The translations under genes and the position numbers were made by a program. Below are positions 35,450 through 37,763 of a stretch of 64,000 nucleotides of DNA, piece after piece; the stretch's first letter is position 1; each line of letters opens with the position of its first letter. The stretch is from the human T2T-CHM13v2.0 reference genome, Homo sapiens, in the NCBI RefSeq assembly GCF_009914755.1, contig NC_060942.1; one strand, written 5' to 3'. Under the pieces are notes generated by a model. The model was given only the letters and a program-made list of their open reading frames with translations. It was not told the DNA's origin and did no database searches.

Positions 35450-36145
35450 TGAATCAAATGAAAAAAAAGTATTTTTTTGATTGAGCTATAATTTACATAT
35501 CATAATGTGCACCCATTTAAAGTGTACAATTTAGTGATTTTAAGTATATTCATTTAATTGGCAACCACCACCACTTCTAATTTCAGAACATTGTTTACCA
35601 CCTCTAAAGGAAACCCTGTGCTCATTTAGCAGTCACTTCTTGTTTACTCTGCTCCCAGCCGCTGGTAACCACTAATCTACTTTCTGTCTGTATGGATTTT
35701 GGAGCAAATAAATCTAATGTTATTTATTTTATTAGGTGGGTATTTTCTGTAGAAAGAATTTGCAAGTAAAATGGTGGACTTACAGAATCTTTGTTTCAAA
35801 GGTTGGTTACGCTAAACTCTGAAGCAACTCTCCAACTATCAGCACTGGAAGTAGTCAAGTTTATCTGGCTAGATTTTTCTTTTATTAGTAAAATGTCAGA
35901 AGAACTGGACTTCAGAAGCATTACAATCCTAAATATAGAATGTCTTCTAAAGGTTAAAACATTCTGGAATTTAACTTTTTATTTACATGTTATGTTGATC
36001 AGTTTTCTTCTCTCATAGAAGTAAAACTATATTCTGTTTCCTGATGTAAAACCAGTGTTTATGAAATATGAATAAGTATTTAGGAAAAAAGAAGCCCTGG
36101 GATAATGAGTATCTGTTCTTTTCTTTTTTTTTTTTGATTCCCCAG

Positions 36146-36292
36146 ACACATAGTGGATCTGTATGGCGTGTGACATGGGCCCATCCTGAATTTGGGCAGG
36201 TTTTGGCTTCCTGTTCTTTTGACCGAACAGCTGCTGTATGGGAAGAAATAGTAGGAGAATCAAATGATAAACTGCGAGGACAGAGCCACTGG
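36146..36292 (+). CDS. SEH1L: SEH1L exon 3 (147 nt, aa 55-103)
   Basis: ccccag|[55 protein letters not shown]|gtgaga. Confidence 0.98.
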
Positions 36293-36732
36293 GTGAGACA
36301 TTTATTAGTATTCTGGGGACCGGGAAGACATGAGCAGCCAAGGAGCATTCATCCGAAGGCTACCTCAGATAATTGGTAAAATATCACCACTCCCCTCTAG
36401 TTTTACCAGTTCTAAAGTTCTTTCTTCCATGTTTTTTTCTTCCTTTTTTATTTCATTTTAACTTGGGTCTGAAGCAATACTTAGGAGCATCACTGCATTG
36501 TTTATAACTTTTATGATGAATCCAGAATATTTGCATTGTATTTGATTTTACCTATTAGTATATTTTATGATAGTAATATATGATTTTAAAGTATTCTGGC
36601 TCACTGCAGTCTCAAACTCCTGGCCCCACCTCAGCCTCCTGAGTTGCTGAGATTATAGGCATGAGCCACTGTGCCTAACTCTAAAATTCTTTTTTTTTTT
36701 TAACTTTAAACTCTTAAGGGTTAATAAAATTC

Positions 36733-37024
36733 TTTTTTTTTTTTTTAGACGGAGTCTCACTGTGTCACCCAGGCTGGAGTGCAGTGGCACAATCTTGGCT
36801 CACTGCAAGCTCCGCCTCCCGGGTTCACGCCATTCTCCTACCTCAGCCTCCTGAGTAGCTGGGACTACAGGCGCCCGCCACCACGCCCATCTAATTTTTT
36901 GCATTTTTAGTAGAGACGGGGTTTCACTGTGCTAGCCAGGATGGTCTCGATCTCCTGACCTCGTGATCTGCCTGTCGGCCTCCCAAAGTGCTGGGATTAC
37001 AGGCGTGAGCCACCACGCCTGGCC
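36733..37024 (-). mobile_element. AluY in the inverted-repeat spacer
   Basis: TSD aagggttaataaaattct at ~36716 and 37025. Confidence 0.93.
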
Positions 37025-37556
37025 AAGGGTTAATAAAATTCTTTAAATTTTATTTAAATTTAAATAAATTTAATGGGCCAAATTCAGGATGGGCCCATGT
37101 CACACGCCATACAGATCCACTGTGTGTCTGGGGAATCAAAAAAAAAAAAAGAAAAGAACAGATACTCATTATCCCAGGGCTTCTTTTTTCCTAAATACTT
37201 ATTCATATTTCATAAACACTGGTTTTACATCAGGAAACAGAATATAGTTTTACTTCTATGAGAGAAGAAAACTGATCAACATAACATGTAAATAAAAAGT
37301 TAAATTCCAGAATGTTTTAACCTTTAGAAGACATTCTATATTTAGGATTGTAATGCTTCTGAAGTCCAGTTCTTCTGACATTTTACTAATAAAAGAAAAA
37401 TCTAGCCAGATAAACTTGACTACTTCCAGTGCTGATAGTTGGAGAGTTGCTTCAGAGTTTAGCGTAACCAACCTTTGAAACAAAGATTCTGTAAGTCCAC
37501 CATTTTACTTGCAAATTCTTTCTACAGAAAATACCCACCTAATAAAATAAATAACA

Positions 37557-37763
37557 TGGCTAACATGGTGAAACCCTGTCTCTACTAAAAATACAAAAAA
37601 TTAGCCCGGCATGGTGGTGGGTGCCTGTAAGTCCCAGCTACTCTGGAGGCTGAGGCAGGAGAATGGTGTGAACCCGGGAGGCGGAGCTTGCAGTGAGCCG
37701 AGATCACGCCACTGCACTCCAGCCTGGGCGACGGAGCGAGACTTGTCTCAAAAAAAAAAAAAA
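37557..37763 (+). mobile_element. 5'-truncated AluY fused to the duplicated segment
   Basis: Starts mid left arm (tggctaacatggtgaaaccc); AluY diagnostics; A tail. Confidence 0.9.

What the first reader, a model, noticed from the sequence alone, without database searches (positions are those of the whole stretch)
35717..37557. Near-perfect 480-bp inverted duplication predicted to bury the SEH1L exon 3 splice acceptor in a long pre-mRNA hairpin
Seen: 37078-37557 is the reverse complement of 35717-36195 with only two differences noticed. The copied segment spans the last 429 nt of intron 2 (branch region, polypyrimidine tract, AG) and the first 50 nt of exon 3; it is unique gene sequence, not TE. 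Exon 3 is 147 nt and phase 0/0, so skipping is in frame and removes aa 55-103 (about one WD40 repeat). Inference: the insertion is young, and the nascent RNA can fold into a ~480-bp duplex (882-nt loop holding the exon 3 donor), far more perfect than Alu-Alu pairs. This would be a cis self-antisense element racing spliceosome commitment over ~1-1.4 kb of elongation. Predicted results are elongation-rate-dependent exon skipping or intron retention, ADAR hyper-editing of non-Alu and coding sequence, and possibly endo-siRNAs or MDA5/PKR ligands. This is the best candidate for an undescribed regulatory element here; function is unproven.
Basis: partly seen in the sequence, partly recalled or inferred. 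Interest (0 to 1): 0.85.

Follow-up and report, generated by a model that had tools for sequence, protein, structure and literature searches.

The report
Young inverted duplication flanking SEH1L exon 3
A 480-base piece of the human SEH1L gene, holding the end of intron 2 and the start of exon 3, has been copied backwards into the next intron, so the RNA could fold into a very long hairpin; the copy is real and recent, but no evidence here shows it regulates the gene.

Summary
Window 37078-37557 is the reverse complement of 35717-36195, 479 versus 480 nt. The arms differ by one substitution, which is a G.U wobble in RNA, and by one base in a T12/A13 run. The segment covers 429 nt of intron 2 plus 50 nt of exon 3. 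It occurs only at these two places in the assembly. It is the only one of 953 window self-matches of 200 nt or more that reaches 95% identity. The predicted RNA hairpin has 479 arm-to-arm pairs.

The copy abuts an older Alu that lacks its first 90 nt, and no supported target-site duplication flanks it. I read it as a recent DNA-level templated inverted insertion, from template switching or break repair, and not as retrotransposition.

The regulatory reading is untested, because no RNA data, other assemblies or ape genomes were available. Exon 3 has a long pyrimidine tract, and SEH1L is a fitness gene. The kind is already known: inverted repeats that loop out exons, and catalogued long exon-intron dsRNAs. 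The most likely outcome is a tolerated, ADAR-edited nuclear duplex with little exon skipping. Interest is moderate.

The parts
35717..36195 (+). Arm 1, the source: last 429 nt of SEH1L intron 2 (branch region, pyrimidine tract, AG) plus the first 50 nt of exon 3
   Evidence: hub annotation for exon bounds; only two genomic places
36146..36292 (+). SEH1L exon 3, 147 nt, phase 0/0, residues 55-103, part of the WD40 beta-propeller
   Evidence: Translation. It matches residues 55-103 of human SEH1 chains 5a9q_7 and 7uhy_E. Pfam WD40 scores 21.1 bits, below the cut-off of 27. Frame check.
36196..37077 (+). 882-nt spacer, the predicted loop: last 97 nt of exon 3, the exon 3 donor at 36292/36293, and the start of intron 3 including an Alu
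36736..37024 (-). Near-full-length Alu in minus orientation (T run 36736-36747, body 36747-37024, head at 37024) with an exact 20-nt target-site duplication at 36716-36735 and 37025-37044
   Evidence: Family D6; sequence; 26 of 277 positions (9.4%) differ from the window Alu majority
37045..37077 (+). 33-nt AT-rich stretch between that duplication and arm 2. It is probably original intron sequence.
   Evidence: Unique in the assembly at up to 2 mismatches, 1 place. No above-chance match to the arm 1 region: 463 of 1000 shuffles reach the score.
37078..37557 (-). Arm 2: the inverted copy of arm 1, lying in intron 3
37557..37763 (+). Alu in plus orientation with its A tail, lacking its first 90 positions. 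It abuts arm 2, and base 37557 (T) fits both arm and Alu.
   Evidence: It starts at position 91 of the majority of 39 window Alus. 17 of 192 positions (8.9%) differ from that majority, and 8 of 14 majority CpGs are kept.
36151..36151 (+). The single substitution between the arms: T here (third base of the His56 codon, synonymous), where arm 2 has G at 37122. In RNA this is a U.G wobble.
36124..36135 (+). T12 run of the exon 3 pyrimidine tract. The copy has A13 at 37138-37150, which gives a one-base bulge.

Best explanation
This is a genuine, evolutionarily recent DNA-level inverted duplication. A 479-nt stretch spanning the intron 2 / exon 3 boundary of SEH1L was copied in reverse orientation into intron 3, 882 nt downstream. 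There it replaced the first 90 nt of a much older Alu.

Origin (inferred). The most likely cause is a replication template switch or break-repair synthesis with the four-point order 3-2-1-4. It may have been triggered by a closely spaced head-to-head inverted Alu pair. It was not retrotransposition.

RNA structure (predicted). In the pre-mRNA the two arms can form a 479-bp duplex. It buries the exon 3 branch region, pyrimidine tract, AG and first 50 exon bases, and leaves the donor in the loop.

Consequence (inferred). Exon 3 is usually committed or spliced before or despite the hairpin. The duplex is then a tolerated nuclear exon-intron dsRNA that is unwound and/or A-to-I edited and discarded with the introns. 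At most a minor fraction of transcripts would skip exon 3 or retain an intron. On this reading it is a near-neutral structural change, not an evolved regulatory element.
For: Structure (shown). There are two genomic copies only. It is the sole outlier among 953 window self-matches of 200 nt or more. The minimum free energy of 35650-37620 is -1116.6 kcal/mol with 479 arm-arm pairs, and the duplex alone is -840.8. In a series of growing transcripts the first 50 exon bases are paired at 3' end 37128, and 36100-36145 are fully paired at 37175, which is 1029 nt after the acceptor.

Origin. The adjoining plus-strand Alu starts at majority position 91. It is 8.9% (17 of 192) from the window majority with only 8 of 14 CpGs left, against 1 substitution in 479 between the arms. 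So the Alu and the copy did not arrive together unless the arms were later homogenised. No target-site duplication beats chance: 367 of 2000 shuffles reach the best score. Arm identity ends abruptly at both ends. The minus-strand Alu head (37024) and the expected head of the plus-strand Alu would lie about 53 nt apart, and the retained parts are 85-87% complementary (pairs I2 and I8). Passages of the review PMC12887540 say that cruciform-forming inverted repeats stall forks and cause breaks and deletions, more so with short spacers. Passages of PMC7954356 say that pattern 3-2-1-4 is one of the two majority patterns that give single perfect inverted repeats.

Tolerance. The exon 3 acceptor has a 12-T run and CAG, and the donor reads TGG|gtgaga. 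SEH1L sits in a screen library of 5,072 fitness-conferring human genes (passage of 10.1101/2021.11.28.470116). Mouse Seh1 is needed for normal growth and for differentiation (abstract of 10.1101/2020.10.27.357376). The RefSeq table given with the finding lists no alternative exon or acceptor within 35717-37557. The abstract of PMC13019027 states that exons with weak acceptors are the ones prone to loop-out skipping.
Against: - No RNA data of any kind could be consulted, so 'little skipping' is inferred and not observed.
- A 479-bp, essentially perfect stem is far stronger than the Alu pairs already associated with exon skipping. It includes the acceptor itself, so a sizeable effect cannot be excluded.
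- From recall, no call: human introns are often removed only after several kb of further elongation, which would let arm 2 appear first.
- The junctions give no positive signature for template switching. There is only 1 nt of possible microhomology at the right junction, and the left one cannot be defined without the ancestral allele.
- The head-to-head Alu trigger assumes that the 33-nt stretch is ancestral and that nothing else was lost.
- The Alu divergence was measured against a mixed-subfamily window majority and is therefore overestimated.
- An alternate-acceptor event in SEH1L is listed in a TCGA-based table (PMC9355308), but the exon is not named.
Confidence: 0.6

Rival explanations
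1. The hairpin is a working cis self-antisense element. It competes with spliceosome commitment and makes exon 3 inclusion, or intron 2/3 removal, depend on elongation rate, helicases and ADAR. It yields an in-frame isoform lacking residues 55-103, heavy editing, and possibly small RNAs or immune ligands.
For: The acceptor, pyrimidine tract and first 50 exon bases are all in the predicted stem, and the donor is in the loop. Sequestration is thermodynamically favoured as soon as arm 2 emerges, about 1 kb after the acceptor. Skipping is in frame. Much weaker inverted Alu pairs flanking exons are associated with skipping (PMC13019027 abstract and passages; PMC13019944 passages; PMC2533698 abstract in the listing).
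Against: - The acceptor looks strong.
- The gene is fitness-conferring, and the exon encodes a propeller blade, so frequent skipping should be costly.
- A very recent duplication has had little time to be shaped as a regulator.
- No annotated alternative exon 3 form appears in the RefSeq table.
- None of the SEH1L papers found describes such a hairpin or exon 3 skipping: 0 papers, and none of those listed.
- dsRNA made of an exon and an intron is removed by splicing, so it should rarely reach cytoplasmic sensors (PMC11838218).
Confidence: 0.12
2. The duplication is old, tens of millions of years, and the arms have been kept nearly identical by gene conversion between inverted repeats, as in Y-chromosome palindromes. 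In that case the copy could even have arrived together with the adjoining Alu.
For: Inverted repeats about 1 kb apart can convert each other (recalled knowledge, no call). One arm includes a coding exon under purifying selection. The copy directly abuts the Alu.
Against: Identity is perfect up to the last base at both ends, with no decayed homology beyond, whereas conversion tracts rarely reach repeat ends. There is 1 substitution in 479 nt, against 8.9% Alu divergence. No supported target-site duplication surrounds copy plus Alu.
Confidence: 0.08
3. A retrotransposition chimera. During L1-mediated insertion of the Alu, reverse transcriptase switched from Alu RNA (at position 91) to an antisense SEH1L RNA or nearby DNA, giving a 5'-truncated Alu fused to an inverted gene fragment.
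For: The Alu is 5'-truncated exactly at the junction and has an A tail. A loose similarity exists between 37032-37055 and 37757-37780.
Against: That similarity is reached by 367 of 2000 shuffles. The Alu is far more diverged than the arms. It would need an antisense template, for which no evidence was seen here.
Confidence: 0.05
4. An assembly artefact, or a mutation private to the CHM13 cell line, and not a feature of human genomes at large.
For: Only one assembly could be examined. Error-prone repair synthesis could create the two differences at once (recalled knowledge), so the age could be zero.
Against: - Fold-back read artefacts give spacer-less exact palindromes. This is a copy 882 nt away with its own junctions, one substitution and one indel.
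- The region is ordinary euchromatin, well within long-read length.
- The RefSeq transcript maps cleanly onto it (hub table).
Confidence: 0.05

Closest known systems
Loop-out exon skipping by inverted intronic repeats (inverted Alu pairs): Lev-Maor et al. 2008 PMC2533698; Denisko et al. 2026 PMC13019027; PMC13019944
   Same: Complementary sequences in the introns on both sides of an exon are predicted to form a stem that loops out the exon. The effect is thought to depend on co-transcriptional kinetics and acceptor strength.
   Different: - The arms are unique gene sequence, not Alu.
- They are 99.6% identical, against 74-87% complementarity for the Alu pairs around this exon.
- The upstream arm runs through the branch region, AG and 50 nt of the exon, so the acceptor lies inside the stem and not beside it.
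- Skipping has not been observed.
Catalogued long, highly paired endogenous dsRNAs (over 300 bp, over 96% paired): Andrews & Bass preprint PMC11838218; Barak et al. 2020 PMC7006430
   Same: It meets the length and pairing criteria, lies within one transcription unit, and is of the exon-intron type. [quoted passage not shown]
   Different: Most catalogued cases are inverted LINE elements, and 88% are intergenic. This one is non-repetitive and sits in a broadly needed gene.
Intronic editing-complementary sequences that direct ADAR recoding of an exon (the GRIA2 Q/R type; recalled, no call)
   Same: An intronic sequence downstream is perfectly complementary to exon bases. Even after intron 2 is removed, a 50-bp exon-intron duplex remains possible.
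   Different: Classical cases are conserved, imperfect and site-selective. This one is new, perfect and long, so any editing would be promiscuous. No editing has been seen.
Template-switch mutations under the four-point model: Walker et al. 2021 PMC7954356 (also Loytynoja & Goldman 2017, as cited there)
   Same: A reverse-complement copy of nearby sequence replaces the stretch between the departure and return points. The order 3-2-1-4 gives a single perfect inverted repeat.
   Different: The described class is searched within tens to hundreds of nucleotides of a mutation cluster. Here the copied tract is 480 nt and the template lies 0.9-1.4 kb away. Junction microhomology could not be shown.
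Hairpin-RNA / endo-siRNA loci of flies and mouse oocytes (recalled, no call)
   Same: A long, near-perfect inverted repeat transcribed as one RNA.
   Different: This one is intronic and exonic within a host pre-mRNA. No small RNAs are known, and long dsRNA is poorly diced in human somatic cells (recalled).

Membership tests
Loop-out exon skipping by flanking inverted repeats | Reverse-complementary sequences in the introns upstream and downstream of one exon | tested here: met
   Arm 1 has 429 nt in intron 2 and arm 2 lies in intron 3 (hub exon table)
Loop-out exon skipping by flanking inverted repeats | Predicted stable stem-loop enclosing the exon | tested here: met
   479 arm-arm pairs in the minimum-free-energy fold, duplex -840.8 kcal/mol. 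Only the last 97 nt of the exon and the donor are in the loop.
Loop-out exon skipping by flanking inverted repeats | The repeats are Alu or other transposable elements (as in the described cases) | tested here: not met
   Two genomic places only. A repeat-like control stretch gave 30 places.
Loop-out exon skipping by flanking inverted repeats | The exon is observed to be skipped | not testable with these tools
   No RNA-seq or junction data were available. The RefSeq table does not show skips.
Loop-out exon skipping by flanking inverted repeats | Weak 3' acceptor (a predisposing feature, PMC13019027) | tested here: inconclusive
   By eye the acceptor is strong, with a 12-T run followed by CAG. 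No MaxEnt score could be computed.
Long, highly paired endogenous dsRNA (over 300 bp, over 96% paired) | Stem longer than 300 bp | tested here: met
   479 bp
Long, highly paired endogenous dsRNA (over 300 bp, over 96% paired) | More than 96% of stem nucleotides paired | tested here: met
   One bulged A in 480, and the single substitution is a G.U pair
Long, highly paired endogenous dsRNA (over 300 bp, over 96% paired) | Both arms on one transcript | tested here: met
   Both arms lie inside the SEH1L transcription unit 28691-68271 on the + strand (hub table)
Long, highly paired endogenous dsRNA (over 300 bp, over 96% paired) | A-to-I editing of the arms | not testable with these tools
   No editing database was available. 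Paper searches on SEH1L with editing terms found nothing on this locus.
Template-switch inverted duplication (four-point model) | Reverse-complement copy of nearby same-chromosome sequence, with the sequence between departure and return points replaced | tested here: met
   The copy lies 882 nt from its source. The adjoining Alu lacks positions 1-90. The order is 3-2-1-4.
Template-switch inverted duplication (four-point model) | Microhomology at the switch points | tested here: inconclusive
   One shared T at 37557. The left junction cannot be defined without the ancestral allele.
L1-mediated retrotransposition chimera | Target-site duplication flanking the whole insert | tested here: not met
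   The best flank alignment is reached by 367 of 2000 shuffles
L1-mediated retrotransposition chimera | Alu and attached sequence are of equal age | tested here: not met
   Alu 17 of 192 (8.9%) from the majority with 8 of 14 CpGs kept, against 1 substitution in 479 between the arms
ADAR recoding site with an intronic complementary sequence | Intronic sequence complementary to exon bases | tested here: met
   36146-36195 pairs with 37078-37127, 50 of 50 paired
ADAR recoding site with an intronic complementary sequence | A-to-G changes seen in the mRNA | not testable with these tools
   There are 11 adenosines in the 50 nt, and 6 would recode. No expression data were available.

The most novel reading that the evidence does not exclude
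The copy is a human-lineage-specific, or still polymorphic, self-antisense element that measurably alters SEH1L RNA. Exon 3 inclusion and intron 2/3 removal would become sensitive to Pol II speed, dsRNA helicases and ADAR. Promiscuous editing of the exon-intron duplex would write new recoding sites into the first 50 nt of exon 3 (T55A, H56R, S57G, T64A, H67R, E69G). If the allele segregates, it would be a natural splicing/editing QTL in a nuclear-pore and GATOR2 gene. At the DNA level, recombination between the arms could recurrently invert 36196-37077 and so destroy exon 3.
Probability: 0.12. Interest if true: 0.7.

Novelty: new member of a known kind. Interest (0 to 1): 0.4.

Why it matters
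If the hairpin forms in cells, this would be a rare natural case of a near-perfect 479-bp duplex that includes a constitutive splice acceptor and coding bases of a broadly needed gene.

- It would let one measure in vivo the race between RNA folding and spliceosome commitment. The window is fixed at about 1 kb of elongation.
- It would show how nuclear editing and helicases handle a non-Alu duplex.

There are practical consequences whatever the function:
- Short reads from the first 50 nt of exon 3 and the end of intron 2 have a second, inverted home. The T/C difference at 36151 can then look like a SNP, and stranded libraries are needed to assign editing.
- The arms are a substrate for gene conversion into a coding exon, and for an inversion that would break exon 3.

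If it proves inert, it shows how robust a strong exon is to an extreme structure.

Tried and rejected
- Target-site duplication around copy plus Alu: the best alignment (37032-37055 against 37757-37780) is reached by 367 of 2000 shuffles, so it was rejected as evidence.
- Origin of the 33-nt stretch 37045-37077 from the arm 1 region, on either strand: 463 of 1000 shuffles reach the score on the + strand. Origin from elsewhere in the assembly: 1 place, itself, at up to 2 mismatches. Both gave nothing.
- By eye, 37063-37077 resembles 35708-35722. The fuzzy search (last 16 nt, up to 2 substitutions) did not return it, and I treat it as an AT-rich chance match.
- Rfam over 35500-38200: 0 families at gathering score.
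- Papers on this locus:
  - SEH1L with 'inverted repeat': 0 papers.
  - With dsRNA and ADAR: 2, both irrelevant.
  - With circRNA: 9, none on this by title or abstract.
  - With 'RNA editing': 6. Three passages were read and were unrelated.
  - With 'exon skipping': 4. One table names a SEH1L alternate-acceptor event without naming the exon.
  - With 'inverted': 34, of which 25 were listed, none relevant by title or abstract.
- SEH1L occurs 0 times in the main texts of PMC13019027 and PMC13019944.
- Three look-ups of older papers on inverted Alu instability by id found nothing held.
- No primate or second human assembly is reachable with these tools, so presence, absence and the ancestral allele could not be tested.
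- No splice-site scoring model was available.
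Full report
**1. The observation**

The repeat finder reports two adjoining inverted pairs: 35717-36135 with 37139-37557 (419 nt, 100% complementary) and 36119-36195 with 37078-37154 (77 nt, 96%). 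A gapped alignment joins them into one pair, 35717-36195 (479 nt) against the reverse complement of 37078-37557 (480 nt).

There are exactly two differences:
- T at 36151, where the copy has G on the + strand at 37122.
- A T12 run (36124-36135) against an A13 run (37138-37150).

The alignment was given 27-38 nt of flank on each side and did not extend, so the boundaries are sharp. The spacer is 882 nt.

**2. More than chance, and not a repeat family**

A self-comparison of the 64-kb window gives 953 matches of 200 nt or more, nearly all Alu against Alu. This pair, at 99.58%, is the only one at 95% or above, and the next best is 93.3%.

A search of the whole assembly with arm 1 finds two places, the arm and its copy. 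As a control on sensitivity, the same tool was given a repeat-like 170-nt stretch of the window. It returned 30 places, 28 of them dispersed at 74-85% identity. Rfam has nothing at gathering score in 35500-38200.

**3. What was copied**

By the annotation supplied with the finding, exon 3 is 36146-36292. The arm therefore holds the last 429 nt of intron 2 and the first 50 nt of exon 3.

The acceptor context is a 12-T run followed by a short pyrimidine-rich stretch and CAG. The donor is TGG|gtgaga. 162 coding nt precede exon 3, so it is in phase 0, and its 147 nt encode residues 55-103. Joining the annotated coding parts gives no stop, with or without exon 3.

The 49-residue translation matches residues 55-103 of human SEH1 in solved nuclear-pore and GATOR2 structures, for example 5a9q_7 and 7uhy_E. 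It resembles a WD40 repeat, with Pfam WD40 at 21.1 bits, below the curated 27.

**4. Surroundings**

To the left of the copy lies a near-full-length minus-strand Alu. Its body is 36747-37024 and its head is at 37024. It has an exact 20-nt target-site duplication at 36716-35 and 37025-44 (family D6). A 33-nt AT-rich stretch follows (37045-37077).

The right end of the copy abuts a plus-strand Alu with an A tail (to 37763). In an alignment with 39 near-full-length Alus of the window, this Alu starts at majority position 91, so its first 90 positions are missing. They are not found to the left of the copy.

This Alu differs from the window majority at 17 of 192 positions (8.9%) and keeps 8 of the 14 majority CpGs. 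The majority mixes subfamilies, so 8.9% is an overestimate of its age. The CpG loss still says it is old.

**5. Origin (inference from the anatomy)**

The arms differ by 1 substitution in 479 nt, while the abutting Alu is many-fold more diverged. They therefore did not arrive together, unless the arms were later homogenised.

No target-site duplication around copy plus Alu exceeds chance: 367 of 2000 shuffles reach the best score. The 33-nt stretch has no significant source in the arm region (463 of 1000 shuffles) and occurs once in the assembly. It is most simply old intron sequence.

The geometry is that of a templated inverted insertion. Synthesis leaves at 37077, copies the top strand from 36195 back to 35717, and returns at Alu position 91, deleting what lay between. 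This is order 3-2-1-4 of the four-point model, one of the two majority patterns that give a single perfect inverted repeat (passages of PMC7954356). That paper's class is searched within tens to hundreds of nucleotides. This event is larger and more distant.

A plausible trigger exists. Before the event, the two Alus would have lain head to head about 53 nt apart. Their retained parts are 85-87% complementary (pairs I2 and I8). Inverted repeats with short spacers stall forks and are cut, giving breaks and deletions (passages of the review PMC12887540).

The junctions give no positive proof. Only one base (T at 37557) is shared between arm and Alu, and the left junction cannot be read without the ancestral allele.

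**6. Age (my arithmetic, with recalled rates)**

One substitution in 479 nt is 0.21%. With 0.5-1.0 x 10^-9 substitutions per site per year, and both copies evolving, this is about 1-2 million years. The Poisson range for a single event runs from near zero to roughly 6-12 million years.

Two caveats pull in opposite directions:
- Gene conversion could hide a greater age. The perfectly sharp ends argue against that.
- Break-induced or repair synthesis is error-prone, especially in homopolymer runs (recalled). Both differences could then date from the event itself, and the allele could be very young, rare or even private.

No second human assembly or ape genome can be reached with these tools.

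**7. The RNA prediction**

Folding 35650-37620 as RNA gives -1116.6 kcal/mol with 479 arm-to-arm pairs. All 46 bases of 36100-36145 and all 50 first exon bases pair with arm 2. The remaining 97 exon bases and the donor lie in the loop. The two arms alone give -840.8 kcal/mol. The substitution is a U.G wobble, so the stem is interrupted only by one bulged A.

In a series of growing transcripts, pairing with arm 2 starts as soon as it appears:

| RNA 3' end | What is paired to arm 2 |
|---|---|
| 37090 | 13 pairs |
| 37128 | the first 50 exon bases |
| 37175 | all of 36100-36145 (AG and pyrimidine tract) |

The last point is 1029 nt past the acceptor. These are equilibrium predictions on naked RNA. 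Proteins, helicases and kinetics are not modelled.

**8. What it most likely does**

No expression, editing or structure-probing data were available, so this is inference.

For a small effect:
- The acceptor looks strong, and the study of inverted Alu pairs found exons with weak acceptors to be the prone ones (abstract of PMC13019027).
- SEH1L is in a library of fitness-conferring human genes, and mouse Seh1 is needed for growth and differentiation. The exon encodes part of the propeller.
- The RefSeq table lists no alternative exon or acceptor inside 35717-37557.
- A recent accident has had little time to be shaped by selection.

For a larger effect:
- The stem is far stronger than any Alu pair, and it contains the acceptor itself.
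- From recall, many human introns are removed only after several further kb of transcription.

I therefore put about 0.6 on a tolerated nuclear duplex with little skipping and about 0.12 on a real, measurable regulatory effect.

Editing is the consequence I consider most probable. Arm 1 has 144 adenosines and arm 2 has 179. Of the 11 adenosines in the first 50 exon bases, 6 would recode: T55A, H56R, S57G in a UAG context, T64A, H67R and E69G. Even after intron 2 is removed, a 50-bp exon-intron duplex remains possible. This is like an intronic editing-complementary sequence (recalled comparison).

Because one arm is intronic, the duplex is removed by splicing and should seldom meet cytoplasmic sensors (PMC11838218).

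**9. Comparison with what is known**

Inverted intronic repeats that loop out exons are well described for Alu pairs (PMC2533698, abstract in the listing; PMC13019027 and PMC13019944, passages).

Long near-perfect dsRNAs have been surveyed genome-wide. There are 2,018 with more than 300 bp and more than 96% pairing. Most are inverted LINEs, and 88% are intergenic. [quoted passage not shown] Such structures are depleted even from pre-mRNAs, and some are heavily edited (PMC7006430, passages).

The SEH1L pair meets the criteria of that class. It differs from most members in being unique sequence and in covering a constitutive acceptor.

I found no paper that describes it (SEH1L is absent from the texts searched). 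I file it as a new member of a known kind.

**10. Verdict**

Structure and thermodynamics hold. Regulation is not shown, and the kind is not new.
- Interest is 0.4. It is a clean natural test case with practical consequences for read mapping, paralogous variants, gene conversion and a possible exon-breaking inversion. The most likely outcome is that the gene tolerates it.

Noticed in passing
window 11717-11882 and 14154-14323: A second inverted pair of about 170 nt at 94.7% identity, 2.3 kb apart. The sequence has dispersed relatives at 74-85% identity on many chromosomes (28 of the 30 places), so it is repeat-derived. It may be the two ends of one element or a local inverted duplication of a repeat. 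The right arm lies inside the RefSeq 'silencer' 13950-14244.
   Followed up: partly
window 36716-37044: The minus-strand Alu in intron 3 has an unusually long, exact 20-nt target-site duplication (family D6). It lies only 53 nt from where the head of the truncated plus-strand Alu should have been. That would be a closely spaced head-to-head Alu pair, possibly the fragile site behind the duplication.
   Followed up: partly
window 35168-35439, 37557-37763 and 37828-38125: Exon 3 is also flanked by ordinary inverted Alu pairs: intron 2 minus strand against intron 3 plus strand, 74-77% complementary (pairs I4-I6). Any observed exon 3 skipping would have to be apportioned between these and the unique-sequence hairpin.
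   Followed up: no
window 37484-37495 (inside arm 2) and 37623-37634 (truncated Alu): Read on the sense strand, both places carry a GTAAGT hexamer preceded by CT, which is donor-like. No exon is annotated there, and no scoring model was available.
   Followed up: no
window 36151: The only substitution between the arms is the synonymous third base of the His56 codon: T in the exon and the equivalent of C in the copy. Mis-mapping or gene conversion could make this look like, or become, a coding SNP.
   Followed up: no
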